NCBI RefSeq assembly: GCF_001677475.2
Contig: NZ_CP015229.1
DNA from: Escherichia coli
GTDB lineage: Bacteria; Pseudomonadota; Gammaproteobacteria; Enterobacterales; Enterobacteriaceae
Reading direction: 5' to 3' (one strand)
DNA: 64,000 nt
Within the stretch, counting starts at the first letter, position 1. Every line of letters begins with the position of its first letter. Below the pieces are notes generated by a model that saw only the letters and a list, made by a program, of their open reading frames with translations, was not told where the DNA came from and ran no database searches. Below are positions 4,972 to 44,050 of the stretch, one piece after another. Made by a program: the position numbers and the translations under genes.

Positions 4972-5120
4972 TGCGCACCCTTATAAATTTAATGACTTTC
5001 TAATAGTCATCATATTTATAACGGACGTGAAAGGAGTAACGGTTTTATATACCGTTTGGTGATTTGGAAGTTGAAAAGGGAATAAGAACTTGGTTCAACA
5101 GGCGTAATTGTTGCAGTCAG
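4972..5120 (-). promoter_or_regulatory. cysP promoter region (CysB-activated in E. coli)
   Basis: AT-rich region directly upstream of the first operon gene; assignment is from established cys-regulon knowledge, individual sites not mapped here. Confidence 0.4.
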
Positions 5121-5274
5121 TTTGGACACGGACAGCGCGGAGAAACCGGAGCGTACACATAGTACGTGAGGATTTCGAGCACTGCCCGGGGCAAAAATGA
5201 CAAATAAAATAGCCTGGTGAACTTAGTTCAAGACGAAATCCTCCCCACACATGCAGGGAGGAAACAGAGGTGAA

Positions 5275-9540: not shown

Positions 9541-9543
9541 TAT

Positions 9544-9633
9544 CATGAAACGGACAATGCTCTATCTTTCTCTGCTGGCTGTTAGCTGCAGCGTCAGCGC
9601 CGCAAAATACCCTGTTCTGACAGAAGGTAGTTG
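9544..9633 (+). pseudogene. 29-codon ORF with signal-peptide-like N-terminus; possible remnant of yfeW (PBP4B)
   Basis: MKRTMLYLSLLAVSCSVSAAKYPVLTEGS then stop, in the slot where K-12 (from memory) carries yfeW; only 179 bp separate murP and yfeX. Confidence 0.3.
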
Positions 9634-9663
9634 ATCAAGTATATGCGGCGTTAAAGCAGTAAT

Positions 9664-9700
9664 AAAAAGGCCAGTCAGTAATGTTACTGCCTGGCCTTTA
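9664..9700 (-). terminator. Rho-independent terminator downstream of yfeX (may also serve murP)
   Basis: aaaggccag...ctggccttt 9-bp stem with inner cagtaa/ttactg stem; U-run follows on the minus strand. Confidence 0.65.
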
Positions 9701-9719
9701 ATCAATGAATCAGAAACGC

Positions 9720-12425: not shown

Positions 12426-13295
12426 ATGAGCACTTTTAAACCACTAAAAACACTCACTTCGCGCCGCCAGGTGCTGAAAGCCGGTTTGGCTGCCCTGACG
12501 TTGTCAGGAATGTCGCAAGCCATCGCCAAAGACGAACCTTTAAAAACCAGCAACGGACACAGCAAGCCGAAAGCCAAAAAATCTGGCAGCAAACGTGTCG
12601 TTGTTCTCGATCCAGGCCACGGTGGGATCGATACCGGAGCGATCGGACGCAACGGTTCGAAAGAAAAACATGTGGTGCTGGCGATTGCTAAAAACGTCCG
12701 TTCCATTTTGCGTAATCATGGGATTGATGCGCGTTTAACGCGTTCTGGCGATACGTTTATCCCACTTTACGATCGCGTTGAAATCGCCCATAAACATGGC
12801 GCAGATCTGTTTATGTCAATTCATGCCGATGGCTTTACCAACCCGAAAGCTGCCGGTGCTTCGGTATTTGCCCTCTCTAACCGTGGGGCAAGTAGCGCAA
12901 TGGCGAAATACCTGTCTGAACGCGAAAACCGCGCCGATGAAGTTGCCGGTAAAAAGGCGACTGACAAGGATCACCTATTGCAGCAAGTGCTGTTTGATCT
13001 GGTGCAAACCGATACTATTAAAAACAGCCTGACGCTTGGCTCGCATATTCTGAAAAAGATTAAGCCGGTGCATAAACTGCACAGCCGCAACACCGAACAA
13101 GCCGCGTTTGTGGTGTTGAAATCGCCGTCGGTTCCTTCGGTGCTGGTGGAAACCTCGTTTATCACCAACCCGGAAGAAGAGCGACTGTTAGGCACGGCGG
13201 CGTTTCGTCAGAAAATCGCCACAGCGATTGCTGAAGGCGTGATCAGTTATTTCCACTGGTTCGACAACCAGAAAGCACATTCGAAAAAGCGATAA
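12426..13295 (+). CDS. amiA: N-acetylmuramoyl-L-alanine amidase A
   Basis: 289 aa with Tat-type signal (SRRQVLK) and amidase_3 domain; matches AmiA. Confidence 0.95.
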   Translation: MSTFKPLKTLTSRRQVLKAGLAALTLSGMSQAIAKDEPLKTSNGHSKPKAKKSGSKRVVVLDPGHGGIDTGAIGRNGSKEKHVVLAIAKNVRSILRNHGIDARLTRSGDTFIPLYDRVEIAHKHGADLFMSIHADGFTNPKAAGASVFALSNRGASSAMAKYLSERENRADEVAGKKATDKDHLLQQVLFDLVQTDTIKNSLTLGSHILKKIKPVHKLHSRNTEQAAFVVLKSPSVPSVLVETSFITNPEEERLLGTAAFRQKIATAIAEGVISYFHWFDNQKAHSKKR

Positions 13296-14198
<903 letters not shown>

Positions 14199-14203
14199 CT
14201 CCC

Positions 14204-15256
14204 TCACCCCCATTCCCGCATCCGCTGATGCAACGTCAACGACGGCTTCTCGGCAAACAGCTGCTGGTAATCCGTGGCAAATTGCCCCAGATGCCAGAAT
14301 CCCCACTGCATGGCGGCGTCTTTTACCGTTGTGCTTTGCGACCACGGGCTTATCAGTTCGCGGCGTACGGCATTCAGGCGAATGCGTTTCAGCCACGCGT
14401 TCGGGCCAATGCCTAAAATAGCGTGAAACGCGTTTTGTAGCGTGCGGCGACTGACATGCAGTTGATTACACAAATCCAGCACCGTCACCGGTTCGGACAT
14501 GTTTTCCAGCACATATTCACGGGCGCGGGAAAGTAATCTACGGTAACTCTGATGACTGATGCTTTCCGCCGTCACCATTGGTTGCGCTTCTTCCAGCATC
14601 GCCCCCATCGCCATTAGCAAATTATCCCCCAGCACTTTTCGCACTGCAGGCTGATGGAGATTTTCCGGGTTCTCGCAAAACGTCGCCAGCGCCTGTTGGA
14701 CAAAGCCCCACAGCGCGGCTTTATGCTGCTCTTTCACTTCCAGCGCCGACTGGCTACGCAGCATATGTAATACCCGATCCGGATTATGCAAAAAGTTAGC
14801 CTGACGGGTGATGACATCTTCAGAAAGCACTACGCCCAGGATCGTGTAATCGTCCGGCGTACTTAATTCAAACTCAGTGCCACCGGGGCGCGTCGCTATT
14901 TCTGCGCTTCCCAGACATTGCGAACCGATAAATCCCTGCTCACCGCGCGTCGCCGGAATGCCAAACCAGAACGAGTTCGGCCAGACCAGGCACGACTGAC
15001 GCAGTGCCAGACCGGTGTATTCACGAAAAACCTGAATATCATCGAGTAGAATTTCCGTAAATTCACCATGAAACTTGCCCGGATGCAGCTGATCGTAAAT
15101 CTGCTGCCAGGCGGTAATCGTTAAAGCATGTTCATAGACATCCGTTGTCTGTCGTTGATGAACATTATCCACTTCGACCTTCGGCGTGAGCTTCAGGTTT
15201 TCGGGTAAGGGTTCATGATAAAGATGGTGCAAATTGGCTGTACGGGTCTTTTTCAT
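14204..15256 (-). CDS. eutR: AraC-family activator of the eut operon
   Basis: 350 aa with C-terminal AraC HTH; matches EutR; last gene of the eut operon. Confidence 0.94.
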
Positions 15257-15301
15257 GATGTTAATGCCAGGTGTTGTAGGACACCCGGCACCTCCGACAG
15301 G

Positions 15302-15802
15302 TTAATGGGGCTTGAGACGATAACGACTACTGCGTTTACGTAACGTCCCGGCAGAAAAGAGCTGTTCGAGCGCATTTCTGGCTTTTTCCAGCGGCCAGCC
15401 AAAGTGGGCAGCCACTTCTCCTGCCGTCATTCCCTGACGTACTGATGTTAACAGCGCCAACAACTCGTCAGCAGATTCCGCGACGATAACTGGCGCGTCG
15501 GGTTCCTTTACGGGTTGCTTCGGCTGGCGGTTAAAGCCAGTAACCAGCCACTGGGTGTCATCGTCTGGCCGACCGATCTCCTTACGGCTGATGACACGCC
15601 CGGTACGCATCGCGGCAGCACAACCTGCGTCCAGCGCAGCACGACACGCCGCCAGATCGCCTTCCACCACCAGCGTTAAGCGACCAGGGTCAAGCACTTC
15701 GTGACTGAGCAGACGAACGTTAGCTGCTTTGAGCATGGCATCCGCTGCATCTATCGCGGCGACCATGCCGTCCACTTCCAGCAATCCCAGTGCATTGATC
15801 AT
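15302..15802 (-). CDS. eutK: Microcompartment shell protein EutK
   Basis: BMC domain (MINALGLLEVDG...) plus C-terminal extension; 166 aa from the second Met. Confidence 0.9.
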   Translation of the reverse strand: MINALGLLEVDGMVAAIDAADAMLKAANVRLLSHEVLDPGRLTLVVEGDLAACRAALDAGCAAAMRTGRVISRKEIGRPDDDTQWLVTGFNRQPKQPVKEPDAPVIVAESADELLALLTSVRQGMTAGEVAAHFGWPLEKARNALEQLFSAGTLRKRSSRYRLKPH

Positions 15803-15814
15803 CGGCAACCTCCA

Positions 15815-16474
15815 TTACGCACGCTGGATTGGATTACGCGCGATTTCCAGCACTGCATCGGTAAAGGCGTTACAGGCCGCTTTACACGCTGCCTGGCTAC
15901 CGGTTAAAAATGCTGCCGAGTAGTTAGTTTCAGACGGTGGCGGGACATAGGTCACCAGCTGTACGTCGGCAGATTTCAGGGCTGCATCAATGCCGTAGGT
16001 CGCTTCCAGCGGCGGTGCCACCAGATACGCCATCGGATCGCCAAGCGTGATCCCGGCGGTTGATGAGAGATAAGAACCGGTACGCGAAACTACATGTGCC
16101 AGGAAGGCTGTATTTTCTGCGTCATTAGCCCACTGGAAAGCAGCGCCATTTTCAATATGCGCAACCATCGCATCCAGACCTGCACGCACTTCCGCCGGGT
16201 TTGGCCCACCAAGCATAATCAGCACTTCACCGGCAGTCGGTGACGGTCCGTGTGCAGCGCCCGCATACAGCGAGCGACCATACACCACTTCGACCATCGC
16301 CTGTTTGGTCGCTTCGTCAGCCGCAATGTAGGTTACGTCATCGGAGTCGGCAGAAATCAGCCCGAGGCTACGAATATGCGGCGGCAATTTCAGTTCACGC
16401 GCAAATTCGGCGTTAACGGAGGCAATCACCCGCATGGCGGTGACAGACGGTCGAATCAAATCTAAAGCTGGCAT
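15815..16474 (-). CDS. eutL: Microcompartment shell protein EutL (tandem BMC domains)
   Basis: 219 aa matching EutL. Confidence 0.94.
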
Positions 16475-16483
16475 GATGCCTCC

Positions 16484-17371
16484 TTATCGGGTCATGTTGA
16501 TGCCGGATGCTTTCTGCTCCAGCATACGTTTCGCCAAATCCACAATGACGGCTGCGGCTTCAACCGGCGGTGTGCCGCCCTGGTGAATGTTAGAGATACA
16601 GGTGCGATCGGCCTCAACGGTGGTCGCCATACGCGGCGAGTAAACGGCGTAGCAGGAGAGGCTTTCTGACTGCCCTAATCCCGGGCGTTCGCCCACCAGC
16701 AGGATCACCACTTTCGCGCCGAGGATCTCACCGATCTGATCTTCAATCTTCACGCGACCATAACGAACAAAGAATGGCGTACCGACTTTCAGCCCGGCCT
16801 GTTTCAGGCCCGCCATCAGCGGCGGCAGGATCTCTTCGTAGTTCACGGTGATCGCATCAGTTGACAGGCCATCAGAAATAACGACCTGCACGTCCGGATT
16901 GGCAACACACTGCGCTTTCAGCGCTTCAACAGCTTCTGCACTCAGGCGGCGGCCCATATCCGGGCGAGTCAGGTAGAGATTTTTGTCGCTAATTTCAGAG
17001 CGTACTTCCAGCAAGCCCTGCGCTTTCACCCACTCTTCCGGCACTTCTTTAAGTACGGTATCTTTCGAACGAGAGTGATCGGCCAGGAAACGCAGCAACG
17101 CCTGGGTACGCGGACGCGGACCGGCACGACCGGTACAAACGCGGGCCACGGTGCTGCGACGCAGTTCTGTTAACACATCCGCACGATGTGGGTTTTCAAC
17201 ACCAATCCACGCTTTTGCTTCCGCAGAACCTAAATCCAGCGCGCAGCTTTCCGAGGTCACCGATGCCGCACAGGTGGTGGTGGCGCACTTTGCTTCTGAC
17301 GGCTCGGGGGCCGTTTGTCCCATTGACGCCATCACGCTGCGTACAATTTCTTCAATCTGTTTTTGATCCAT
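16484..17371 (-). CDS. eutC: Ethanolamine ammonia-lyase small subunit
   Basis: 295 aa matching EutC. Confidence 0.95.
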
Positions 17372-17391
17372 GATGTGTTATCTCCGCGTCA

Positions 17392-18753
17392 TCAGAAGAA
17401 CAGTGACGGATCGCCCGCCCGTTTGGTCAGGCGACCGTTTGCCATAATGCCCATGCTTTCCAGCCAGCGCTCAAACTCCGGTGACGGGCGCAGGTTGAGT
17501 AACTGACGCACAGTGGCAGTGTCGTGGAAGGCCGTGGTCTGGTAGTTGAGCATGATGTCATCGCCTAACGGCATCCCCATGATGTAGTTGCAGCCTGCGG
17601 TGGCGAGCAGGATCATCAGGTTTTCGTTGAGGTTCTGGTCAGCGTCAGCGTGGTTGGTGTAACAGCAGTCACAGCCCATAGAGATGCCGCTCAGCTTGCC
17701 CATAAAGTGATCTTCTAAGCCCGCACGGATAATCTGACGGTCATTGTAGAGATACTCCGGCCCAATAAAGCCGACCACGGTGTTGACGATAAACGGATCG
17801 TAATGACGCGCCAGCCCATAGTTACGTGCTTCCATCGTCACCTGGTCTGCGCCGAAGTTAGCGCCAGCGGATAGCGCTGAACCTTGTCCGGTTTCGAAGT
17901 AGAGGCAGTTTTCCCCGGCGATACGGTTGAACTCTGCACCCACTGCGCGCGCTTCGTCGAGCATCGCCAGTTCCACACCAAACTCTTTCAGCCCTTTTTC
18001 ACTGCCACAGATACTCTGGAAAATCAGCCCGCCTGGTGCGCCACGACGAATCGCTTCGATCTGGGTGGTGACGTGCGCCAGTACGCAGCCCTGAGTTGGG
18101 ATGTTGAATTTGTCGATCACGCTATAGATGGTGTCCAGCACGCGGCTTAAGTTTTCCACGTCGTCAGTTACCGGGTTGACGCCGATCACCGCATCGCCCA
18201 CCCCGAAGGAAAGCCCTTCGTAGATTTGCGCGGCGATACTTTGCACGTCGTCACGGGTGTCATTTGGCTGCAAACGGGCGCTGAAGGTGCCCGGAATACC
18301 GATGGTGGTATTGGCCTTTTTGATTACCGGCATTTTCTTCGCGCCGTAGATCAGGTCCGCGTTGGAGCAAATCTTCGCTACCGCCGCGACCACTTCCGAG
18401 GTCAGCCCTTTGCGGGTAAAGGCAATGTCGTCCACGCTGGTTTCATCGCTCAGCACATACTCACGCAGTTCGCTGATGCTCCAGTTTTTAATCTGGTTGT
18501 AGGCCGTTTCGTTAACGTCGTCCTGAATCAGCCGCGTCACGCAGTCATCTTCATAGGCAATCACCGGATTATTGCGGATGTCCGCTACGGTCATTTCCGA
18601 CAACACCTGCTTTGCCGCCACGCGCTCCTGTGAGCTTGCCGCTGCAACGCCTGCCAGCACATCCCCCGAACGCAGTTCGTTGGCTTTAGCCAGCACCTCT
18701 TTTACATCCTTAAACTGATATACATTGCCGAACAATGTGGTCTTTAGTTTCAT
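17392..18753 (-). CDS. eutB: Ethanolamine ammonia-lyase large subunit
   Basis: 453 aa matching EutB. Confidence 0.96.
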   Translation of the reverse strand: MKLKTTLFGNVYQFKDVKEVLAKANELRSGDVLAGVAAASSQERVAAKQVLSEMTVADIRNNPVIAYEDDCVTRLIQDDVNETAYNQIKNWSISELREYVLSDETSVDDIAFTRKGLTSEVVAAVAKICSNADLIYGAKKMPVIKKANTTIGIPGTFSARLQPNDTRDDVQSIAAQIYEGLSFGVGDAVIGVNPVTDDVENLSRVLDTIYSVIDKFNIPTQGCVLAHVTTQIEAIRRGAPGGLIFQSICGSEKGLKEFGVELAMLDEARAVGAEFNRIAGENCLYFETGQGSALSAGANFGADQVTMEARNYGLARHYDPFIVNTVVGFIGPEYLYNDRQIIRAGLEDHFMGKLSGISMGCDCCYTNHADADQNLNENLMILLATAGCNYIMGMPLGDDIMLNYQTTAFHDTATVRQLLNLRPSPEFERWLESMGIMANGRLTKRAGDPSLFF

Positions 18754-18764
18754 AAGTCGTTCCC

Positions 18765-20168
18765 TCAGGAAGGAAATGCGAGTGATTTCACCGTCACCGG
18801 CACAACCGATCCGCCAAAAAGAGGCGTACCAATGTCGATATAGTCCCCCGCGCGGACAATCACTTCGTCAATGACTGCCAACGGGAGTTGTTGTAGCTGT
18901 GGGCGCAATAACATGCCCAGAGCTTTACCAAAGTCCTGCCCGGCCACCACCAGCAGGGGATGCGGATTCGGAAAACGCGCGACGAAATCGACCAGCGCGT
19001 TGATGACCGTCAGTACCGCGGCGTAACGCACAGGCAGCGAGGCGGGAAGCGCCAGCACGTACGCGTCAGTTTTGGGATCAAGATCCAGCTGAATCAGCGC
19101 CTGTTGCCAGGCACTCACCAGATCCGTTTCATCAATCGGGATCGCCACCGGCAAATTGCGCAGCGGCAGTTGTACGCCCTCCAGCCAGATTGTGCTGCCA
19201 GAGAGCGAAAGGGTATGTGCACCCGCGCCAATCACCGTGGCGCGTACGGTTTGCGCCGGAAACTGCACATTCATCTCACGCAGGCGCGGATGGTCATGCA
19301 GCGCCGTTGCCAGAAGTGGGCCAATATCGGCAAAACAGAACGGGTCGGCGGGCTGGTGGCGATAACATTCGCCCACGCCGCCAGAAAGCGTAATGATTTC
19401 GGGCGTAACACCTGTGGGCAGCAAACCGGTTTGCATCAATGCCTGCGCGAGCGGCGAGAGCGTTCCGTCAATCACTTCGACAATCAGTTCTGCCATCCGC
19501 CGGGTAACCTGCACCAGCTGCGCGCCGGTCAGCGAACGGACGTCAGTGCCTGCACCGAAGCACTCATCCACAATCATCTGCCCCGGTTTATGAGCGTAAA
19601 CCACGCGCCCCTGGCTGTCGGTTTCCAGCAGGCGACCACCGACGTTGAGGCAGGCAGTGCCGCTGATTTTTCCGGCATCGAACAGGGCGTAGTTCGCGGT
19701 GCCACCGCCGATGTCGATATTCAGTACCCGACACAGCCGTTGTTCAGAAAGGGTTTGCGCCCCGGCACCGTGACCAGCGATTACGGATTCGAGGTGCGGC
19801 CCGGCGCTGGCGACGACAAAATCGCCCAGCGACTGAGAGAGCGCCATCACCGCCAGGCGAGCATTGCGGGTTTTCGCGCTTTCACCGGTGATGATGATGG
19901 CACCAGAATCAACGCTTTCCGGCGCAATTCCCGCTGCCTGATATTGCTCTAAAATCAGCGATTTCAGTTCCGCTTCTTTTAAACCACCCTGTTTATCGAC
20001 AGGGGTAAAGAACACCGGGCTTTGCCAGCTAATTTCGCGTTTGATGAATTCGTAGCGCGGCACCTGCGACACCGCCGCACGGTTAACCAGCTCCAGGTGG
20101 GAGAAAATCACCTGGGTGGTGGTGGTGCCGATATCGATACCGACGCTCAGTAGCTGGCGAGTGTTCAC
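18765..20168 (-). CDS. eutA: Ethanolamine ammonia-lyase reactivating factor
   Basis: 467 aa matching EutA; ends 11 bp upstream of the eutB start. Confidence 0.95.
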   Translation of the reverse strand: MNTRQLLSVGIDIGTTTTQVIFSHLELVNRAAVSQVPRYEFIKREISWQSPVFFTPVDKQGGLKEAELKSLILEQYQAAGIAPESVDSGAIIITGESAKTRNARLAVMALSQSLGDFVVASAGPHLESVIAGHGAGAQTLSEQRLCRVLNIDIGGGTANYALFDAGKISGTACLNVGGRLLETDSQGRVVYAHKPGQMIVDECFGAGTDVRSLTGAQLVQVTRRMAELIVEVIDGTLSPLAQALMQTGLLPTGVTPEIITLSGGVGECYRHQPADPFCFADIGPLLATALHDHPRLREMNVQFPAQTVRATVIGAGAHTLSLSGSTIWLEGVQLPLRNLPVAIPIDETDLVSAWQQALIQLDLDPKTDAYVLALPASLPVRYAAVLTVINALVDFVARFPNPHPLLVVAGQDFGKALGMLLRPQLQQLPLAVIDEVIVRAGDYIDIGTPLFGGSVVPVTVKSLAFPS

Positions 20169-21391
20169 GATTGTGCCTCCGCTTCGGTTTTAGCCGTTGC
20201 CGCGTCTTCTTTTGGCACCAGCATCATCGCCACGCCAATCGCCGTGACGCCGCCGATAAGCTTGCCGACAATCATCGGGAAGATCATGGCGTTCATGTTG
20301 GCAGCGGCGAAGCCTAAGTGGTCGCCCAGGGCGAAAGCAGCGGAAACGGCGAAGGCGCAGTTGATGACTTTGCCGCGGGTATCCATCTGCTTCATCATGC
20401 CAAACATCGGGATGTTGTTGGCAAGCGTTGCCACCATGCCGGCTGCCGCGATGTTGTTCATATTCAGCACTTTACCGACGCTCATCAGCGGTTTTTCAAA
20501 CCAGCGGGTCAGCAGCAGCACCATCGGATACGCCCCTAACAGAACGCAGGAGATAGAACCGATAACTTCAATGGCGCGCATCACCTCACCGGGTTTATCG
20601 CCAGGGGCCATAAAGATAGGATCCAGACCGGGGATCAGTTCCCAGCCAAGCAGGAATTTCACTACCGCAGCGGCAAGACCGAGGGTGATCAATGCAACGA
20701 GGAATTTGGCAAAGATCTGGAAGCCGTTGATCATTTTTTCCGGGATGAATTTCAGCCCCAGCGCCACCAGAATCGCGACAATGATCACCGGGATCATGTT
20801 CATCAGGATCAGGGCGAAAGTGAAATCCACCGGCTGACCGTTGATCTGTACACCGGAGTACATCGCTACCAGACCACCAGCGATACAACCAATCGGAATG
20901 GTCACAATGCCCGCCAGCACGCCGAGCGCCAGATAACGACGGTCAGAAGGTTCGATAATGCCGAGCGCCACCGGAATGGAAAACACAATCGTTGGCCCCA
21001 TCATCGACCCGAGAATTAACCCAGAGTATAGCCACGCGGCTACGTCGCCGCCCGCCAGCTCTTTGGCGAGGAAGAAGCCGCCCATATCGCACGCCAGCAG
21101 TGTTCCGGCGAACATCGATGGGTTAGCGCCGAGCATTTCGTAAACCGGAATAATTACCGGCCCGAGTACGTGGGCCAGTACCGGTGCCAGCGCGGTCATA
21201 CCGACCATCGCCAGGCCCAGTGCGCCCATTGCCATAAAGCCTTCTTCGAACTGACCGCCTGATCCTTCGATACTTTTACCGAACTTACCGAGGAAACGAG
21301 CAGAACCGCCGAACTGCGACAGGATCCTGTCTACGGCAGCTATCAGCATAAAGAACATCATGATGTACATGATGATTTCGTTAATTCCCAT
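20165..21391 (-). CDS. eutH: Ethanolamine permease
   Basis: 408-aa polytopic membrane protein matching EutH; 4-nt overlap with eutA. Confidence 0.94.
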   Translation of the reverse strand: MGINEIIMYIMMFFMLIAAVDRILSQFGGSARFLGKFGKSIEGSGGQFEEGFMAMGALGLAMVGMTALAPVLAHVLGPVIIPVYEMLGANPSMFAGTLLACDMGGFFLAKELAGGDVAAWLYSGLILGSMMGPTIVFSIPVALGIIEPSDRRYLALGVLAGIVTIPIGCIAGGLVAMYSGVQINGQPVDFTFALILMNMIPVIIVAILVALGLKFIPEKMINGFQIFAKFLVALITLGLAAAVVKFLLGWELIPGLDPIFMAPGDKPGEVMRAIEVIGSISCVLLGAYPMVLLLTRWFEKPLMSVGKVLNMNNIAAAGMVATLANNIPMFGMMKQMDTRGKVINCAFAVSAAFALGDHLGFAAANMNAMIFPMIVGKLIGGVTAIGVAMMLVPKEDAATAKTEAEAQS

Positions 21392-21421
21392 CGCCTTTAC
21401 TCCCTGTTAGTTGTTATTTAT

Positions 21422-21506
<85 letters not shown>

Positions 21507-21507
21507 T

Positions 21508-22695
21508 TTATTGCGCCGCTGCGTACAGACCGACAATCTGTTCCAGGCTGGCGGTACGCGGGTTGCTGCGCAGACAAATATCTTCCTGCGCGGCCTGCGC
21601 CCATGCGCCGTAATGTCCGGTGGTTGCACCCACGTCTGCCAGCCGCTTGTTGATCCCGACTTCCGCAATCAGCTCACTTACCGCGTTAATAGCGTCACGA
21701 TCGTCGGATTTTTTAGTTCGCAGCGCCCGACCAATCTGACTAAACCGATCACGACAAACCATCCGGTTAAATTCCATCACCGTTGGCAGCAACATGGCGT
21801 TCGCCAGACCGTGTGGAATATGCAGCGCCGCCCCTGGCTGATGCGCCATCGCGTGGCACAACCCAAGTCCGGCACTGGAAAACGCCATTCCCGCCATACA
21901 TGAAGCCAGCAACATGCTCTCGCGCGCGGCAAGGTCATGACCGTAGCCCACCGCTTTCGGCAGTGATTTGCCAATCATCGCAATGGCACCAATCGCCAGA
22001 CTGTCGGTAAACGGTGTGGCGTTCAGCGCGCTGTACGCTTCAATGGCATGGGTTAACGCATCAATGCCAGTCATCGCCGTGACATGCGACGGCACACCTT
22101 CGGTCAATGCGGCGTCGAGGATCGCCACATCCGGCATCAGCGAGGCATGGGCTAACACCTGCTTGCGCCCGCTCACCGCGTCAATAATCACCGTTACGTT
22201 GGTGGTTTCAGAGCCGGTTCCGGCGGTCGTTGGAATGGCAATCAGCGGCAAGCGCGGTTGCAGAACGCTGGTTTCTGACATCTCTGCCAGCGTGCTATCC
22301 GGGTTCGTCACCAGCAACGCCACGGCTTTTGCTGCATCCAGCACCGAGCCGCCGCCAAACGCGATCAACCCATCACAGCCTGATTCACGCAACTGCGCCA
22401 CGGCTGCACACACGTCGGTGATGCACGGTTCGCCCACCGGACATGGCCAGAGCGTCATGGCGATACCTTTAACGGCCAGGCTGCGCGTCAGCCCGGCGGT
22501 CATCCCTGCCTGATGCAAAAAGCTGTCTGCCATCACGAACAGATGTTTCAGCCCACGCGTTTGCGCTTGCTGCCCGCAACTGCTCACCGCGCCCGGACCG
22601 CAAAGCGTCACCGGTGGAACGCTAAATGTTTTTACCCGTTGCAGATTCAGGGTATCGAACGCCTGAAAGAGCGCGGTCTGCAATTCATTTTGCAT
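21508..22695 (-). CDS. eutG: Iron-containing alcohol dehydrogenase
   Basis: 395 aa matching EutG. Confidence 0.94.
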   Translation of the reverse strand: MQNELQTALFQAFDTLNLQRVKTFSVPPVTLCGPGAVSSCGQQAQTRGLKHLFVMADSFLHQAGMTAGLTRSLAVKGIAMTLWPCPVGEPCITDVCAAVAQLRESGCDGLIAFGGGSVLDAAKAVALLVTNPDSTLAEMSETSVLQPRLPLIAIPTTAGTGSETTNVTVIIDAVSGRKQVLAHASLMPDVAILDAALTEGVPSHVTAMTGIDALTHAIEAYSALNATPFTDSLAIGAIAMIGKSLPKAVGYGHDLAARESMLLASCMAGMAFSSAGLGLCHAMAHQPGAALHIPHGLANAMLLPTVMEFNRMVCRDRFSQIGRALRTKKSDDRDAINAVSELIAEVGINKRLADVGATTGHYGAWAQAAQEDICLRSNPRTASLEQIVGLYAAAQ

Positions 22696-23521
22696 ATAGC
22701 CCCTCCGCTTTTTCTCGCCCGCTACTGGCGATCGCCAGCGGGGTCATAAACAAACTGTGCTGCGGTAAATGCACCTGTAACGCCGGGAATTGTTTGCGAA
22801 ACAGTTCCGCCACGCCCGGTTGCATACAAGAGCCGCCCGCCAGCCATAAATCAGTAATGCCCTGCCCTTCAATATGCCGGGCAACAATGTCCGCCATTTT
22901 TTCGTACACCGGTTTCACCGCGGGCCAAATCTCTTCACCGTGACCGCGCTTGTACTGCTCTGCCTCTTCCAGCGAAATACGACGATTTCCGGCGAGAGTC
23001 AGAGAGATGTGATGTCCGCCAGTGGCTTCATCCGCCGAGTACGTCACCTTGCCCTTTTTCACGATGGCAATGCCGGTAGTGCCACCGCCGATATCCACTA
23101 CGCCTGCGTTATCCAGTTGCAGCAGATCCGCGACTGCGGTTGGCTCATCCAGCACATGGCTCACTTCCAGTCCGGCAGACTCCAGCACGTTGATGGAAAT
23201 ACGCGGGTCCGTACCTGGAGGAAAAGAGGTCGCCGCATGGCTAAAACGGCGACCGAATTGCTGCTCGAGGGTGTCGAGATGGCGACGAACAATGGTGACC
23301 GCACCGAAGAAATCCCAGACGATGCCGTCGCGGACCACATCAGCCCAGTCGAGGCATACCGCCACCGGCTGACCGTCGCGGTCAACAACCATCGACACCA
23401 CATCGCAGGTGCCCAGATCCACCCCCAGCCACAGCGGAGATTCCGTCGCGGCAGGCGTCTGGTTACACAGCGTTGCCGCTATGTGCAGACGTGGGGTGAG
23501 CCATTGTTCGTCGTGCGCCAT
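22685..23521 (-). CDS. eutJ: DnaK/actin-fold chaperone-like protein
   Basis: 278 aa matching EutJ; 11-nt overlap with eutG. Confidence 0.93.
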   Translation of the reverse strand: MAHDEQWLTPRLHIAATLCNQTPAATESPLWLGVDLGTCDVVSMVVDRDGQPVAVCLDWADVVRDGIVWDFFGAVTIVRRHLDTLEQQFGRRFSHAATSFPPGTDPRISINVLESAGLEVSHVLDEPTAVADLLQLDNAGVVDIGGGTTGIAIVKKGKVTYSADEATGGHHISLTLAGNRRISLEEAEQYKRGHGEEIWPAVKPVYEKMADIVARHIEGQGITDLWLAGGSCMQPGVAELFRKQFPALQVHLPQHSLFMTPLAIASSGREKAEGLYAK

Positions 23522-23531
23522 CTGTTACTCC

Positions 23532-24935
23532 TTAAACAATGCGAAACGCATCGACTAATACACAGCGACGCAGACGGACAAACGTCCGCGCGCTGGTTAC
23601 CCCTTCACCGGTTGGCGTGGTGATGGTCATGGTGGTCCAGCCTTCCCCGCCCAGCCCCAGCCCGGCAATACACGGTCCGTTCTTAACGAAAATGCTGGTA
23701 TCAATGGCATTCGCCATCTGGTTCATGTTCTCGATATTGCGCGAGTGCATTGCCGCCGTGTGGTGGCAACCGCCTTCCAGTTTCACCGCCAGCGCAATGG
23801 CATCCGCCACGTTGGCGACGCGCACGACGGGCAGCACCGGCATCATCAGTTCAGTCACAGCAAACGGATGTTCTGCGGTGGTTTCTACAAACAGCAGTCG
23901 CGTTTGTTCCGGAACTTTAAGGCCGATTGCCGCCGCGATTTTCGCCGCATCGCGACCAACCCAGTCACGGCTGACGGTGCCTTTTCCGCGCTCGTCGATA
24001 TTTTTCAGCAACACCGGTTGCAGCTGCTGCGCCTGCTCTGCGGTCAGTTTCACCGCGTGCTGGCCTTCCATCAGACGCATCAGTTCATCGGCTACGCTAT
24101 CCACAACAATCAGTACCTTTTCGTCGGCACAAATGATGTTGTTATCGAAAGACGCGCCTTTGACGATGGACTGAGCAGCACGGGCGAGGTCAGCGGTTTC
24201 ATCCACCACTACCGGCGGGTTGCCAGCGCCTGCGGCAATCAGACGTTTATTGGTGTGTTTACGCGCCGCTTCTACTACCGCTTCGCCGCCGGTCACCACC
24301 AGAAGGCCGATGCCCGGAAACTTGAACAAACGTTGCGCGGTTTCGATATCCGGATTGGCCACGGTCACCAGTAAGTTTTCCGGCCCGCCTGCAGCAACAA
24401 TTGCCCGGTTGAGCAGCGTAATCGCTCGCTGAGAGACTTTTTTCGCCGCCGGATGCGGGGCAAAAATGACGCTGTTGCCCGCAGCAATCAGGCTGATGGC
24501 GTTATTAATAACGGTCGCCGCCGGGTTAGTGGACGGCGTTACCGAAGCCACCACGCCCCAGGGCGCGTTTTCAATTAGGGTCAGGCCGTTGTCGCCGGTC
24601 AGCACCTGCGGAGAGAGGCACTCAACGCCTGGTGTGCCGCGCGCCTGAGCGACGTTTTTGGCAAATTTATCTTCGACGCGCCCCATGCCGGTTTCACTGA
24701 CGGCAAGTTCCGCTAAATCTCTGGCGTGTTTTTCGCCTGCTTCACGAATGGCAACAATGGCTAACTGGCGCATTGCCACGCTCTTTAACCCTTGCTGGGC
24801 AATTTTGGCTGCCGCAACGGCGTCATCCAGGGACGCGAAAACGCCCATCTCATGAACGGCGGCGGGCGGCGTATCACTGCTTTGCATTTTCAGCAGTACC
24901 GCTTTCACCACCTGTTCAATATCCTGTTGATTCAT
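23532..24935 (-). CDS. eutE: CoA-acylating acetaldehyde dehydrogenase
   Basis: 467 aa aldehyde dehydrogenase-family protein matching EutE. Confidence 0.95.
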   Translation of the reverse strand: MNQQDIEQVVKAVLLKMQSSDTPPAAVHEMGVFASLDDAVAAAKIAQQGLKSVAMRQLAIVAIREAGEKHARDLAELAVSETGMGRVEDKFAKNVAQARGTPGVECLSPQVLTGDNGLTLIENAPWGVVASVTPSTNPAATVINNAISLIAAGNSVIFAPHPAAKKVSQRAITLLNRAIVAAGGPENLLVTVANPDIETAQRLFKFPGIGLLVVTGGEAVVEAARKHTNKRLIAAGAGNPPVVVDETADLARAAQSIVKGASFDNNIICADEKVLIVVDSVADELMRLMEGQHAVKLTAEQAQQLQPVLLKNIDERGKGTVSRDWVGRDAAKIAAAIGLKVPEQTRLLFVETTAEHPFAVTELMMPVLPVVRVANVADAIALAVKLEGGCHHTAAMHSRNIENMNQMANAIDTSIFVKNGPCIAGLGLGGEGWTTMTITTPTGEGVTSARTFVRLRRCVLVDAFRIV

Positions 24936-24946
24936 GATGTTCTGCC

Positions 24947-25234
24947 TTATTTGTGGAAAATTACCTGACCGCCAGACACCACCTCATCGACGATGCCAAT
25001 CACGCACAGATCGACCGGTGACGTTTCGCTTTTATGCGCCTGGCGGGCGGAACTGCCACTCACCAGCAACACCCACTCCCCGGTTCCCGCGCCAATATTG
25101 TCGATGGCGACGGCACATTGCCCGTCAGGATTACCTTGTGGATCAATCATTTCCACCATCAGCAATTTGTCATGCGCCAGTCCGTGATGGCGTACGGTAC
25201 AAACAATTTGTCCAGTGACGACTGCCAGTTTCAT
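24947..25234 (-). CDS. eutN: Microcompartment vertex protein (EutN/CcmL family)
   Basis: 95 aa matching EutN. Confidence 0.93.
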   Translation of the reverse strand: MKLAVVTGQIVCTVRHHGLAHDKLLMVEMIDPQGNPDGQCAVAIDNIGAGTGEWVLLVSGSSARQAHKSETSPVDLCVIGIVDEVVSGGQVIFHK

Positions 25235-25340
25235 ACCCGCCTCCGTGGCGTATTTCAGGTAAAAGCTCCCCCTACCCTCCGCGGAAGGTAAAATGAAAAA
25301 TGAGAGAGCGTGACGCCCGAATCGACGTCACACAGGGTGA

Positions 25341-25634
25341 TTACAGGTTGCTGCTATCGCCTTTCAGGCCGATCGGGAAAACTTCTTCCAGGTCGCCGTG
25401 CGGGCGCGGGATAACATGTACAGATACCAGCTCGCCGATACGCTGTGCCGCTGCGGCACCGGCATCGGTCGCCGCTTTACAGGCTGCAACATCACCACGA
25501 ACCATAGCAGTACACAGGCCGCCGCCAATCTGCTTAACACCAACCAGTTTGACGCGCGCAGCTTTCACCATCGCGTCAGAAGCCTCAATCAGTGCAACCA
25601 GGCCCCGGGTTTCGATCATTCCTAATGCTTCCAT
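25341..25634 (-). CDS. eutM: Major microcompartment shell protein (BMC domain)
   Basis: 97 aa from [26 protein letters not shown]; canonical BMC hexamer sequence. Confidence 0.93.
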
Positions 25635-25672
25635 TGTGCTTTCCTCTTTATCAGGGTCCAGAACGGGACCGT

Positions 25673-26689
25673 TCATTCAACCAGTGTTTGTAAACTGCTT
25701 TCGCGGTTCACTTCTGTCTGACGCGGCACAGCTGCCACCAGCGCCAGCTCGATAATTTCCTGCACGCTACAACCACGAGAGAGATCGTGCATCGGCGCGG
25801 CAAGTCCTTGTATCAATGGCCCGACGGCACGATATCCGCCGAGTCGTTGTGCGATTTTGTAGCCAATATTTCCGGCTTCCAGCGACGGAAAAACCATCAC
25901 ATTGGCCTTGCCTTGTAGCGGGCTGGCAGGCGCTTTTTGCGCCGCCACTTCCGGCACGAAGGCGGCGTCAAACTGCAACTCGCCATCGACTACCAACTGC
26001 GGCGCGCGCTCACGGACGATTTCTGTCGCCTGCTGGACGTTGGCAACGCAGGGGTGACGGGCGCTGCCGTTACTGGAAAACGACAACATCGCCACGCGCG
26101 GCTCTTCTCCGGTGATGGCGCGCCAGGTTTCGGCGCTGGCAAGCGCGATATCCGCCAACTGCGCCGCCGTCGGCTGTGGCACTACGCTGCAATCGGCAAA
26201 GCCCAATGCGGGGCCACTGTACTGTGGCAGCATCAGGAAAATGGAGGAGAGCGTTTTACAGCCTGGCTGTAAGCCAATAATGCGTAATCCGGCACGCAGC
26301 ACATTCGCCGTGGAAGAGAGATTGCCCGCGATACAGACATCCGCTGTCCCGGCGCTGACCATTGCGGCAGCGAACATCAGCGGATCGGTGAGTTTTTCCA
26401 GCGCATCCGGCGGCGTTTTTTCGCCCGCGCGGGCCAGCCAGCGATGAGCAAATTCTTCCCGCATTGCGAGGTTGCCATGCGGATCAATCACCTGTAGCCC
26501 GTCCATCGCCACGCCATGACTGAGCGCAAACTGACGAAGTTCAAACGGATTGGCGACCAGAATGGGCGTTGCCAGACCTTGTTGATGTAAATATTGCGCA
26601 GCTTTCAGCACACGTTGATCTAACGCATCCGGAAAAACTACTCTGGCGGGCGCTCGCAACGCCAGTTCACGACAACGTTCAATAATCAT
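25673..26689 (-). CDS. eutD: Phosphotransacetylase
   Basis: 338 aa Pta-like protein matching EutD. Confidence 0.94.
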
Positions 26690-27489
26690 TGCGTTTCCCC
26701 CAGTCGTTGTTGGATCTGCTTCACCGTTAGCGGCTGCTTCGTTACGCTCAGGATCATCATCACGTAGACCGTGCTCGAAAGGCGGTTCAGTGCCTGCAAG
26801 ATGTCCGGGCGTAATACTTCAAAACTGCGGGTTATAAACACCTGCGCCGCTACGGTTTCGGTTTCCCGCACTTTGGTGCGTAGCAGATTGAGCAACGCAG
26901 CATCGCGCCCGTGGCTGGCTTCCGGCACCAGATGATCGTGGTCGAGATAGCGCAGCGGCTGGTGAGAAAGCCGATGCAGATCTTCGTCAGAAAGCCCGAC
27001 AATCGCTTGTTCGCCCAGCGGTTCCCCCAGCGCATCGGCGCGCATAATGTTGCCAAGACGCGAGCGGATGTCCGCCAGCCACGGCTGCCACGGTTCTGCC
27101 AGTTCAATTTGCAGCCACACTGCCAGCGCAATGGTGCTGTCGAGAACCGCGCGAAAACCCAGGCGCGGATCGCTTTTGGCGACCATTTTTTCCGCCGACA
27201 GGTGAGTCAGCGTATCCGGCTTTTTTGCCACCGGCTGGCGGCACAGTTCGCAGCACGCCTGCGGATGTTCATCGCTACTGGTCAGCCCGTGAACGGGCTG
27301 TGGCTGCTGCTGTTCATCGTCAACAAACAGGCGGCCCTGCTCGTCAATAAACTTGATGCGCAGATGGCGGCTTTCCAGTAACTCCCGGGCAGAGGGCGTC
27401 AGGCGACTGTGCGCAGGGAGATGGATCTCTGCGCCTTCGCTGAGCGTATGGTTCGCTCGTAGCCATGCTTCGGTGATGAAATCTTTCAT
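26686..27489 (-). CDS. eutT: Corrinoid adenosyltransferase
   Basis: 267 aa matching EutT; 4-nt overlap with eutD. Confidence 0.93.
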
Positions 27490-28187
27490 AGGGATTGCCA
27501 GTTAGCCGGCCAGGCGACATACAGGAATTTCACGCTGGATGTCGTGCCAAATTCGATGCTGGAGCCTTTCGGGATAAACATCACGTCGCCTGCTTTGGCG
27601 ATCATGGTTTCGCCTTCGTGGCGAACATGCAGTTCCCCTTCCAGCACCATGTCGATTTCGTCGTAGTTCAGGGTCCATGGGAAGAAGGCGTTCTCCCACT
27701 GCATAAAACCGGCGGCCATGCTACTGCCGTCATCTCCGGTGACCAGATCCGTTAATCCGACGCAGTGTGGCTGTGCGCCGTCGAAACGACCAAACTTGAC
27801 GCTGCTGCCATCAATCACTTTGATGCCGCCTTTGCCGGTCACCGATTTGAAGCTCGGCTGCATTGCCCCCTGCTCCAGCGACTGTTTTTCCTTCATCACT
27901 TTTTCCATCAGCTGCGCGACCAGGCTTTCGGTAAACTGGCCTTCCGGCAACTGGGCAATGATGGTTTCGCGGATGCGCTGGCTTTCGGTTTTATCGGCTG
28001 GCGCGCTGGCGGGAACAGACGCCGTTACCGGAGTCGATTCATCGCATTCGGTGATGGTAAAACCCAGTAGTTCCGCCACTTCACGGGCTTCCGGAGTAAT
28101 AATGCTGGCACGTAGAACCACGGACATTGCCTGTTCGCCGCGCGCGTGTGCTTCACGAATATCATTCGCTGTGATGAGTTTTTTCAC
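27486..28187 (-). CDS. eutQ: Cupin-fold protein EutQ
   Basis: 233 aa matching EutQ; 4-nt overlap with eutT. Confidence 0.93.
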   Translation of the reverse strand: MKKLITANDIREAHARGEQAMSVVLRASIITPEAREVAELLGFTITECDESTPVTASVPASAPADKTESQRIRETIIAQLPEGQFTESLVAQLMEKVMKEKQSLEQGAMQPSFKSVTGKGGIKVIDGSSVKFGRFDGAQPHCVGLTDLVTGDDGSSMAAGFMQWENAFFPWTLNYDEIDMVLEGELHVRHEGETMIAKAGDVMFIPKGSSIEFGTTSSVKFLYVAWPANWQSL

Positions 28188-28641
28188 CTGCTTCCTCCTG
28201 TTTGGTGAGAGATGCCAGATAATCCACCAGTTGCTGCACGCTTTGCGGGTCGTGGCTGTTTAGCTCGAAAATCGGCTCTTCGAAGCCAGTCTCAAGCAAT
28301 AACTTTCGCGTTGCGGCGACGTCAGCATCTGGCATGTCCGTTTTACTGATGACGGCGATTTGCCGTTTGCTGACGCCAATATCCAGCAACCCGGCAGGCA
28401 ACCGACTTTCCGGGTCATTCGCGTCGTGGACATAGATCAGCATGTCCACATCCTGTAGCGTGGTAATTAAGGCGTGATACCAGCGGGGATGGCTAAAATA
28501 TTCACCTGGCGTATCAATATCACCCTTATTATTAAATTCCACAGCCTGCGTTTTTCGCGCGAGGGTATAATCCCCTTGCAACGCATTAAATAACGTTGTC
28601 TTTCCTGCTCCGACAGCACCCACAAACGCAATTCGTTTCAT
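28162..28641 (-). CDS. eutP: P-loop NTPase EutP
   Basis: 159 aa with Walker A GAVGAGKTT; matches EutP; 26-nt overlap with eutQ. Confidence 0.93.
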   Translation of the reverse strand: MKRIAFVGAVGAGKTTLFNALQGDYTLARKTQAVEFNNKGDIDTPGEYFSHPRWYHALITTLQDVDMLIYVHDANDPESRLPAGLLDIGVSKRQIAVISKTDMPDADVAATRKLLLETGFEEPIFELNSHDPQSVQQLVDYLASLTKQEEAGEKTHHSE

Positions 28642-28653
28642 GAATGCCTCGCA

Positions 28654-28989
28654 TTAACTTTTGGTCATTTCACAAAGCGTATAATTTAATAAGCGACCTA
28701 AACCACTGACAGTTTGTGATAACGCTTCTTCTACTGCACCCACCGAGCCATAAATCACCAGCGCGCCGCTAAAACGGTCGAGAAATCCGATATGCACATC
28801 GGCGGCTTTCAGCGCTAAATCACCGGCGATCATCGCCGTTTCGCCGGGAGTTAGCGTCATAATGCCGATTGCACCCGCATCCGGAACGCCGATTTTCTTC
28901 GCCAGTTCCTCGCCGGGATGCGCGATGAGATGCGCCAGTGTGACCTGTTTGCCGGGCACAAATTCTTGAATGATGCGTTCTTTATCCAT
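28654..28989 (-). CDS. eutS: Microcompartment shell protein EutS (permuted BMC domain)
   Basis: 111 aa from [15 protein letters not shown]; matches EutS; first gene of the operon. Confidence 0.9.
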
Positions 28990-29150
28990 GAGTCGCCGCC
29001 TGTGAAAAACTTGCGTGTATCGTGACAATTTTTCGTCAGAGTAAATAACAAAATTCGGCAAGCGCGTTTAAAAGGTGAGGTAGATCACTAAGAATGGAGA
29101 GATATTTACTGTTATGAATAAACTTTCATATGCGACGCATGAATATAAAT
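28990..29150 (-). promoter_or_regulatory. Main eut operon promoter region upstream of eutS
   Basis: AT-rich region directly upstream of the first operon gene; assignment from known eut operon organisation, sites not mapped. Confidence 0.35.
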
Positions 29151-43990: not shown

Positions 43991-44050
43991 TTACTTACGA
44001 AGCATAACTTCGATAAAGTCTTTCCAGTTCCCCAGTTCACGTTCAATCAT
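43991..44050 (-). CDS. ypfM: 19-aa small protein
   Basis: Reverse complement reads atgattgaacgtgaactggggaactggaaagactttatcgaagttatgcttcgtaagtaa = MIERELGNWKDFIEVMLRK; below the ORF-track size cut-off. Confidence 0.7.
   Translation of the reverse strand: MIERELGNWKDFIEVMLRK

What the first reader, a model, noticed from the sequence alone, without database searches (positions are those of the whole stretch)
18754..18764. eutB and eutA are directly adjacent, so the eut operon is uninterrupted
In K-12 the eut operon is split by the CPZ-55 cryptic prophage between eutA and eutB. Here the eutA stop (18765) and the eutB start (18753) are 11 bp apart, and all 17 eut genes are intact and collinear. 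This is the ancestral, unoccupied state of that integration site and shows the window is not from K-12.
Basis: partly seen in the sequence, partly recalled or inferred. Interest (0 to 1): 0.4.

Follow-up and report, generated by a model that had tools for sequence, protein, structure and literature searches.

The report
Empty CPZ-55 site in eut operon
The ethanolamine-utilisation operon in this window is whole, with eutA and eutB 11 bases apart; this is the ordinary, already documented state of E. coli and its relatives, and only K-12 and about 8% of strains carry a small integrated island at this spot.

Summary
On the minus strand eutA ends with TGA at 18767-18765 and eutB starts with ATG at 18753. 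The 11 nt between them (18754-18764) carry the eutB ribosome-binding site. All 17 eut genes (eutS to eutR, 28989 to 14204) are collinear and full length.

K-12 MG1655 has the 6.8-kb CPZ-55 element at this junction. The duplicated crossover core is 8 bp, TCAGGAAG. In the window it is present once, at 18765-18772. That is the eutA stop codon plus 5 nt, not the spacer itself.

The empty state is normal. It is found in 4964 of 5426 complete E. coli genomes and in 35 of 35 species representatives of Citrobacter, Klebsiella, Salmonella, Yokenella and Escherichia. So the "ancestral, unoccupied" reading holds.

The window is not K-12, because its flanks are 97.3% identical to K-12. Absence of CPZ-55 alone does not prove this, since scarless CPZ-55-free K-12 records exist.

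The core, the roughly 8% prevalence, the "hot spot" label and the phenotype are all published, so this is already known and of low interest.

Seen in passing: a 202-nt stretch across the junction (18650-18851) is nearly invariant between genera, 1.9% divergence against 15.4% in the rest of eutA and eutB. The integrase core lies inside it.

The parts
18754..18764 (-). 11-nt eutA-eutB intercistronic spacer (minus strand GGGAACGACTT). With the preceding GA of the stop codon it forms the eutB Shine-Dalgarno sequence GAGGGAA.
   Evidence: Identical in 35/35 loci from other genera.
18765..18772 (.). Single-copy attB crossover core TCAGGAAG of IntZ-family islands (CPZ-55 in K-12). It is the eutA stop codon plus the 5 nt before it in eutA.
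   Evidence: The three-way alignment of the window with K-12 attL and attR shows the core duplicated at L001 5692 and 12482, and present once in the window at 18765. The PSS-11 island duplicates the same core. Published as an 8-bp target duplication in PMC6379469.
18765..20168 (-). eutA, ethanolamine ammonia-lyase reactivating factor, 467 aa, intact
   Evidence: NF007991, 1068.7 bits, profile 1-467/467
17392..18753 (-). eutB, ethanolamine ammonia-lyase large subunit, 453 aa, intact
   Evidence: NF011649, 665.3 bits
16484..17371 (-). eutC, ethanolamine ammonia-lyase small subunit, 295 aa
   Evidence: NF003971, 340.5 bits
15815..16474 (-). eutL, shell protein, 219 aa
   Evidence: NF011934, 402.1 bits
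15302..15802 (-). eutK, shell protein, 166 aa (the profile match begins at residue 3 of the longest ORF)
   Evidence: NF012010, 362.1 bits, profile 1-166/166. Same coordinates as the annotation in L006.
14204..15256 (-). eutR, AraC-type activator of the operon, 350 aa
   Evidence: NF007522, 790 bits
20165..21391 (-). eutH, ethanolamine permease, 408 aa
   Evidence: NF011665, 872 bits
21508..22695 (-). eutG, alcohol dehydrogenase, 395 aa
   Evidence: NF011998, 884.6 bits
22685..23521 (-). eutJ, 278 aa
   Evidence: NF011660, 399.8 bits
23532..24935 (-). eutE, acetaldehyde dehydrogenase, 467 aa
   Evidence: NF011927, 736.4 bits
24947..25234 (-). eutN, shell vertex protein, 95 aa
   Evidence: NF011992, 210.1 bits
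25341..25634 (-). eutM, shell protein, 97 aa
   Evidence: NF012018, 212.2 bits, profile 1-97/97
25673..26689 (-). eutD, phosphotransacetylase, 338 aa
   Evidence: NF007233, 409.7 bits
26686..27489 (-). eutT, corrinoid adenosyltransferase, 267 aa
   Evidence: NF011595, 567 bits
27486..28187 (-). eutQ, 233 aa
   Evidence: NF012001, 500.6 bits
28162..28641 (-). eutP, 159 aa
   Evidence: NF012011, 346.4 bits
28654..28989 (-). eutS, shell protein, 111 aa, first gene of the operon
   Evidence: NF012012, 246.2 bits, profile 1-111/111
18650..18851 (-). 202-nt stretch that is nearly invariant at the nucleotide level between genera. It covers the last 87 nt of eutA, the spacer and the first 104 nt of eutB, and it contains the integrase core.
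   Evidence: Divergence from the window is 1.9% inside the stretch against 15.4% in the rest of eutA and eutB, over 30 non-Escherichia loci. Mean pairwise identity at third codon positions is 0.96-0.99 from -92 to +30, against 0.55-0.75 elsewhere. It is the longest such stretch in 13000-25469.

Best explanation
Window 18754-18764 is the native 11-nt spacer between eutA and eutB in an intact 17-gene ethanolamine-utilisation operon (eutSPQTDMNEJGHABCLKR, minus strand, 28989 to 14204).

The adjacent 8 bp TCAGGAAG (18765-18772: the eutA stop codon plus 5 nt) is the chromosomal attachment core used by a family of small islands. These islands encode an IntZ tyrosine integrase, and CPZ-55 of K-12 is one of them. 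Integration duplicates the 8 bp, so the eutA C-terminus and stop codon and the eutB ribosome-binding site are all kept. It also places several kilobases of oppositely oriented genes between eutA and eutB.

In the window the core is present once and nothing is inserted. eutBCLK can therefore be transcribed with the upstream genes from the operon promoter, as in Salmonella and most E. coli.

Shown here: the anatomy, the core, the prevalence and the outgroup state. Inferred from published work: that an intact operon gives ethanolamine-inducible eutB expression and microcompartments, while the K-12 insertion prevents them.
For: - Junction and ORFs.
- All 17 genes are full length and above the curated cut-offs.
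- K-12 annotation places CPZ-55 between eutB and eutA.
- The 8-bp core comes from the alignment of the empty site with attL and attR, with one copy in the window and two in K-12.
- The 11.6-kb PSS-11 island, whose intZ region is 86% identical in DNA, duplicates the same core. A third island sits between eutB and eutA in strain A23.
- IntZ has the Arm-DNA-bind_3, Phage_int_M and Phage_integrase domains.
- Virtual excision at the core reproduces two real K-12 records exactly, 4011/4011.
- 4964/5426 complete E. coli genomes are uninterrupted, and 412 carry an intZ-type gene.
- 35/35 outgroup species loci have the same 11-nt junction.
- Literature: 8-bp duplication and 8% prevalence (PMC6379469); prophage insertion hot spot (PMC6652756); eutB not induced and no microcompartments in BW25113 (PMC7617246); scarless removal restores eut+ (PMC11334477).
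Against: Nothing found contradicts it. The limits are these.

- No expression or growth data exist for the source organism, so function of the intact operon is inferred.
- The roughly 459 genomes with a split junction were not cross-tabulated one by one with the 412 intZ carriers.
- The source strain is unidentified. The best match among 5426 complete E. coli genomes is 97.7% over the operon.
Confidence: 0.95

Rival explanations
1. The site was once occupied by an IntZ-type island that later excised precisely. The empty state would then be secondary rather than never occupied.
For: Excision is scarless: K-12 records GM4792 and a Brisbane MG1655 stock equal MG1655 minus CPZ-55 exactly. CPZ-55 excises at under 1 in 100,000 cells (PMC3105296). 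About 4% of non-K-12 genomes carry related islands.
Against: The empty state is by far the commoner one (91.5% of E. coli genomes; 35/35 outgroup loci), so no past occupation needs to be assumed. A scarless event leaves nothing to detect.
Confidence: 0.04
2. The window comes from a K-12 derivative that lost, or was cured of, CPZ-55.
For: Such K-12 stocks exist (W3110 eut+ in PMC11334477).
Against: The window differs from K-12 at 109 of 4011 positions around the junction, which is 97.3% identity. It has one copy of a 100-bp unit between eutG and eutH where K-12 has two.
Confidence: 0.005
3. The operon is interrupted or decayed somewhere other than the eutA-eutB junction, so "intact" is wrong.
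For: None found. Other strains do show such damage, for example IS1 in eutP of strain A23.
Against: Every one of the 17 products aligns end to end with its NCBIfam profile, above the curated cut-off. The region is collinear with an annotated E. coli operon, with no indel in any gene.
Confidence: 0.005

Closest known systems
Empty attB of cryptic prophage CPZ-55 (eutA/eutB junction) as found in non-K-12 E. coli such as Nissle 1917 and UPEC strains
   Same: Same 11-nt spacer, same single 8-bp core TCAGGAAG, same 17-gene order. Flanks are identical to the outer halves of K-12 attL and attR.
   Different: Nothing structural. The window is only 97-98% identical to any of 5426 complete E. coli genomes over the operon.
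Salmonella enterica eut operon (17 genes; cited as reference 37 in PMC7617246)
   Same: Same gene content and order. The Salmonella arizonae locus L025 has the same stop-11 nt-start junction and differs at 4 of 202 positions in the junction stretch.
   Different: About 15% nucleotide divergence elsewhere in eutA and eutB.
E. coli K-12 MG1655 eut locus with CPZ-55 (intZ, yffL to yffS)
   Same: Same flanking genes. The eutA and eutB coding sequences are unaffected by the insertion.
   Different: K-12 carries 6790 bp between two copies of the core. eutB is then not induced and no microcompartments form in BW25113 (PMC7617246).
Tyrosine integrases with an arm-binding domain (the IntS-like group) that insert at the 3' end of conserved genes
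   Same: IntZ has the Arm-DNA-bind_3, Phage_int_M and Phage_integrase architecture. It targets a sequence that is invariant between genera and restores the interrupted 3' gene end.
   Different: The target is a protein-gene junction, not a tRNA gene. Shared identity between element and chromosome is only 8 bp. The closest integrase in deposited phages is 43% identical.

Membership tests
Enterobacterial 17-gene eut operon (eutSPQTDMNEJGHABCLKR) | All 17 genes are present on one strand in the canonical order. | tested here: met
   ORF map, profile matches and collinearity with an annotated E. coli operon.
Enterobacterial 17-gene eut operon (eutSPQTDMNEJGHABCLKR) | Each product is full length and above the curated family cut-off. 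| tested here: met
   Every best match covers the profile essentially end to end, with bits above the cut-off. EutD and EutE match subfamily-level models (phosphotransacetylase, aldehyde dehydrogenase), also above the cut-off.
Enterobacterial 17-gene eut operon (eutSPQTDMNEJGHABCLKR) | Chromosomal context between hemF and maeB. | tested here: met
   hemF at 13299-14198 and maeB at 29281-31560. Same neighbours in K-12 and three other E. coli.
Enterobacterial 17-gene eut operon (eutSPQTDMNEJGHABCLKR) | Expression inducible by ethanolamine plus B12, and growth on ethanolamine. | not testable with these tools
   Needs culture of the source strain. Inferred from PMC7617246 and PMC11334477.
Unoccupied attB of IntZ/CPZ-55-type islands | A single copy of the core TCAGGAAG, flanked by the outer half of attL on the eutB side and the outer half of attR on the eutA side. 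| tested here: met
   The 25 nt on each side are identical to the K-12 and PSS-11 outer flanks.
Unoccupied attB of IntZ/CPZ-55-type islands | No integrase gene or element remnant between eutA and eutB. | tested here: met
   Only 11 nt lie between the genes.
Unoccupied attB of IntZ/CPZ-55-type islands | The site is competent for IntZ-mediated recombination. | not testable with these tools
   Supported indirectly by scarless K-12 excisants that equal the predicted attB and by three different islands at the same junction, two of them with the same duplicated core.
E. coli K-12 lineage | Near-identity (above 99.9%) to MG1655 in the flanking genes. | tested here: not met
   97.3% over 4011 nt, and 75 differences in 2777 nt of eutB plus eutA.
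E. coli K-12 lineage | CPZ-55 between eutA and eutB (typical of K-12 but not universal). | tested here: not met
   Absent here. It is also absent from some genuine K-12 stocks, so this feature alone does not decide the question.

The most novel reading that the evidence does not exclude
The 202-nt stretch across the eutA-eutB junction (18650-18851) may be a discrete cis-acting element. It is eight-fold less diverged between genera than the rest of the two genes, with synonymous sites almost frozen.

It could be an mRNA element that sets EutB translation or processing or stability of the distal eutBCLK part of the transcript. IntZ-family islands would have evolved to integrate at its invariant centre for the same reason that other integrases use tRNA genes.

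The evidence does not exclude this. It equally fits an unusually long version of the ordinary constraint on translation-initiation regions, which is also seen at the eutB-eutC junction and at the eutH, eutE and eutC starts.
Probability: 0.25. Interest if true: 0.45.

Novelty: already known. Interest (0 to 1): 0.1.

Why it matters
There is little here beyond annotation. An intact eutA-eutB junction predicts that the source strain can induce the whole operon and build ethanolamine microcompartments, unlike standard K-12 stocks such as BW25113. The site, its 8-bp core, its prevalence and its phenotype are all published.

Three practical points are worth keeping:

- The attachment core lies in the last codons of eutA, not in the spacer.
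- Presence or absence of CPZ-55 is not a reliable K-12 marker, because scarless excisants circulate.
- The junction sits in the most conserved nucleotide stretch of the part of the operon that could be compared (window 13000-25469, eutR to eutM). This may explain why it serves as an integration hot spot, and it could be tested as a translational control region.

Tried and rejected
**Homology between element and chromosome beyond 8 bp.** This could have explained the conserved stretch by gene conversion from islands. It is rejected. The inner ends of CPZ-55 and of the PSS-11 island show no similarity to the eutA 3' end or the eutB 5' end beyond TCAGGAAG.

**A known RNA family at the junction.** None found. 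The only Rfam match in 18400-19100 has E = 6.6 and is a chance hit.

**A stable RNA structure.** Not supported. The z-score is -0.73 on the sense strand and -1.08 on the antisense strand for the 202 nt. RNAalifold on the distinct sequences is uninformative, because the stretch hardly varies: one possible compensatory pair and several broken pairs.

**An internal sigma-70 promoter.** No hits in 18400-19100.

**An overlapping antisense ORF (18725-18874, + strand, 49 aa, TTG start).** It is present. It cannot be tested, because the sequence is invariant. It is not favoured.

**Literature on an internal promoter or a conserved element at eutA/eutB.** Nothing found.

**A close phage relative of IntZ.** None. 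The best is 43% amino-acid identity.

**Identifying the source strain.** Not achieved. No complete E. coli genome is closer than 97.7% over the eut region or 98.7% over 44-56 kb. None of the Escherichia species representatives recovered is identical either.

Full report
**1. The observation**

Reading the minus strand of 18600-18900 shows the end of an ORF...GCA TTT CCT TCC TGA. It is followed by GGGAACGACTT and then ATG AAA CTA AAG ACC.

The ORF list gives eutB at 17392-18753 and eutA at 18765-20168, both on the minus strand. The stop codon of eutA occupies 18767-18765 and the A of the eutB ATG is at 18753.

Both products are unambiguous. EutB scores 665 bits against a cut-off of 554. EutA scores 1069 bits against 799, covering profile positions 1-467 of 467.

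The remaining genes were checked the same way:

| Gene | Coordinates (minus strand) |
|---|---|
| eutR | 14204-15256 |
| eutK | 15302-15802 |
| eutL | 15815-16474 |
| eutC | 16484-17371 |
| eutH | 20165-21391 |
| eutG | 21508-22695 |
| eutJ | 22685-23521 |
| eutE | 23532-24935 |
| eutN | 24947-25234 |
| eutM | 25341-25634 |
| eutD | 25673-26689 |
| eutT | 26686-27489 |
| eutQ | 27486-28187 |
| eutP | 28162-28641 |
| eutS | 28654-28989 |

Every one matches its NCBIfam profile essentially end to end and above the curated cut-off. hemF and maeB flank the operon, as in E. coli. So "17 genes, intact and collinear" is correct.

**2. The K-12 comparison and the attachment core**

The RefSeq record of MG1655 annotates "cryptic prophage CPZ-55" at 2558691-2565480. 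It lies between eutB and eutA, with intZ next to eutB and yffL to yffS following, all on the strand opposite to eut.

I aligned the window junction with the two K-12 junctions. Identity with the eutB-side junction runs up to and including TCAGGAAG. Identity with the eutA-side junction starts at the same TCAGGAAG.

The 8-mer occurs at both ends of the element in K-12 (L001 5692 and 12482) and once in the window, at 18765-18772. The crossover core is therefore the eutA stop codon (TCA on the + strand) plus the 5 nt before it in eutA. It is not the 11-nt spacer that the finding's coordinates mark.

Because the 8 bp are duplicated, K-12 keeps the EutA C-terminus and stop codon at one end. At the other end it keeps the eutB ribosome-binding site (CTTCCTGAGGGAACGACTTATG).

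This core is already published: "target site duplication of 8 bp sequence (5'-TCAGGAAG-3')" (PMC6379469).

**3. How common each state is**

A 1011-nt query centred on the junction finds a contiguous match in 4964 of 5426 complete E. coli genomes. That leaves about 8.5% split, in line with the published 8% of 638 strains.

A query made of the K-12 attL region plus intZ finds 412 genomes:

- 216 match at 99% or more. The strains listed are K-12 laboratory derivatives.
- 194 match at 80-90% and 2 at 90-95%. These are wild isolates from humans, livestock and water.

I examined two of the wild islands:

- **PSS-11** (11.6 kb) carries a gadC-like antiporter, murI, a decarboxylase fragment and IS elements.
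- **A23** (8.6 kb) carries a YafO-family toxin and a 726-aa hypothetical protein.

Both start with intZ next to eutB. The PSS-11 island is bounded by the same duplicated TCAGGAAG.

IntZ has the arm-binding, central and catalytic domains of tyrosine integrases. Its closest relative among deposited phages is only 43% identical.

So this is a dedicated attachment site of one integrase family with variable cargo. It has already been described as a "prophage insertion hot spot" (PMC6652756).

**4. Is the empty state ancestral?**

I scanned one genome per species with a degenerate pattern encoding the first 17 codons of EutB. The pattern places no constraint on synonymous positions or on what lies upstream.

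It returned 35 loci: Citrobacter (many species), Klebsiella (5 species), Salmonella enterica subsp. arizonae, Yokenella, Pluralibacter, Intestinirhabdus, Pseudocitrobacter and five Escherichia lineages.

In 34 of them the eutA reading frame ends 11 nt before the eutB ATG. The 35th (C. koseri, L026) has the identical junction sequence but an apparent frame disruption about 100 nt upstream. None is occupied. The ancestral-state claim is supported.

One caveat follows from the next section: excision leaves no scar, so past occupation cannot be excluded for any single genome.

**5. Is "empty" proof of "not K-12"?**

No. Deleting L001 5692-12481 in silico gives a sequence that matches two K-12 records at 4011 of 4011 positions. 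These are GM4792 and a Brisbane "MG1655" stock.

Engineered deletions of the Wang et al. type leave 85 bp of vector sequence. These two records have no such scar, so they look like natural site-specific excisions. The same paper measured spontaneous CPZ-55 excision at under 1 per 100,000 cells.

Jallet et al. list their laboratory W3110 as eut+ and BW25113 as interrupted (PMC11334477).

The window is nonetheless not K-12:

- It differs from the K-12 flanks at 109 of 4011 positions, which is 97.3% identity.
- It has one copy of a 100-bp unit between eutG and eutH where K-12 has 1.9 copies.

The window is also not close to any of the 5426 complete E. coli genomes. The best identity is 97.7% over the operon and 98.7% over 44000-56000.

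**6. Mechanism and consequence**

- **Shown:** the anatomy above.
- **Established elsewhere:** in BW25113 eutS and eutR are induced by ethanolamine, but eutB is not, and no microcompartments form (PMC7617246). Scarless removal of the insertion gives an eut+ strain.
- **Inferred:** with the window's uninterrupted junction, transcription from the promoter upstream of eutS can run through eutA into eutBCLK. The strain should then be able to use ethanolamine when B12 is available.

**7. Something not in the finding: the junction is frozen at the nucleotide level**

The 45 nt upstream of the eutB ATG are identical in almost all 35 loci. I projected all loci onto the window. The stretch 18650-18851 (202 nt) differs from the window at 1.9% of positions in 30 non-Escherichia species. 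The rest of eutA and eutB differs at 15.4%. The per-species binomial P ranges from 2e-5 to 2e-14.

Mean pairwise identity at third codon positions is as follows:

| Region, relative to the eutB ATG | Third-position identity |
|---|---|
| -92 to +30 | 0.96-0.99 |
| +30 to about +98 | 0.85-0.88 |
| Elsewhere in eutA and eutB | 0.55-0.75 |

It is the longest such stretch in the part of the operon with enough sequences, 13000-25469. The next longest are the eutB-eutC junction (38 + 71 nt), the first 50 nt of eutH and the first 42 nt of eutE. Nucleotide conservation at cistron starts is therefore a general feature of this operon. The eutA-eutB stretch is the extreme case, about 1.7 times the length of the next.

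I found no explanation specific to it:

- No Rfam family.
- No significant folding energy on either strand.
- No sigma-70 consensus.
- Too little variation for covariation analysis.
- No paper on it.

One concrete feature is visible. The last eutA codons (UUUCCUU) can pair with the eutB Shine-Dalgarno sequence (GAGGGAA), with the UGA stop codon inside the hairpin. That is the classical layout for translational coupling, and the integrase core CUUCCUGA lies exactly in it.

My reading is as follows. About 55% goes to an extended translation-initiation or coupling constraint on the signature enzyme. About 25% goes to a discrete RNA element. The rest is undetermined. Either way, the invariance gives a plausible reason why an integrase family settled on this site.

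**8. Verdict**

The core is at 18765-18772, and an empty site does not by itself exclude K-12. Everything in the finding is already in the literature. It is an ordinary, correctly annotated locus, so interest is low. The conserved junction stretch is the only item that might merit a separate look.

Noticed in passing
window 18650-18851 (minus strand): A 202-nt stretch across the eutA-eutB junction is nearly invariant between genera: 1.9% divergence against 15.4% in the rest of eutA and eutB, with third codon positions 0.96-0.99 identical from -92 to +30. It is the longest such stretch in 13000-25469, and the integrase core lies inside it. No Rfam hit, no significant fold and no promoter consensus.
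   Followed up: partly
L002 16012-27635; L042 about 20500-29090: Wild E. coli strains PSS-11 and A23 carry different islands (11.6 and 8.6 kb) at the same junction. They share an IntZ integrase about 85% identical in DNA to that of K-12, but the cargo differs: a gadC-like antiporter, murI and IS elements in one, a YafO-family toxin and a 726-aa hypothetical protein in the other. The PSS-11 island is bounded by the same 8-bp core. About 196 non-K-12 genomes have such an intZ.
   Followed up: partly
L003, L004 (K-12 GM4792; a Brisbane 'MG1655' record): Two K-12 records lack CPZ-55 and are 4011/4011 identical to MG1655 with the element removed exactly at the core. This is scarless excision in laboratory stocks. 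A laboratory W3110 is also reported as eut+.
   Followed up: yes
window 9541-9719: pbp4b (yfeW) is almost entirely missing between murP and yfeX. Relative to strain 2018-05-2CC (L006 8440-9625), 1186 bp are replaced by 2 bp, leaving about 81 nt of the 5' end and 38 nt of the 3' end of the gene.
   Followed up: partly
window 21392-21507; L001 15139-15323: The eutG-eutH spacer is 116 nt in the window and 216 nt in K-12. K-12 has 1.9 tandem copies of a 100-bp palindrome-rich unit and the window has one.
   Followed up: partly
whole window: No complete E. coli genome in RefSeq (5426) is closer than 97.7% over the eut operon or 98.7% over 44000-56000, although gene order is that of E. coli. The source appears to be a lineage not represented in that set, or an organism filed under another name.
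   Followed up: partly
window 5088-5229: About 142 nt between cysP and ucpA have no counterpart in strain 2018-05-2CC. Strain PSS-11 also has a longer spacer there.
   Followed up: no
L005 (NZ_CM135829.1, labelled DH5alpha, 4.83 Mb): This record is only 98.0% identical to K-12 around the junction and lacks CPZ-55, so it is probably not a K-12 derivative despite its name.
   Followed up: no
L026 (Citrobacter koseri NCTC10786): The eutA reading frame appears disrupted about 100 nt before its normal stop, although the junction sequence itself is identical. This may be a frameshift or an assembly error.
   Followed up: no
L042 39061-39839 (E. coli A23): IS1 is inserted in eutP of a strain that also carries an island between eutA and eutB, so the operon is hit twice.
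   Followed up: no
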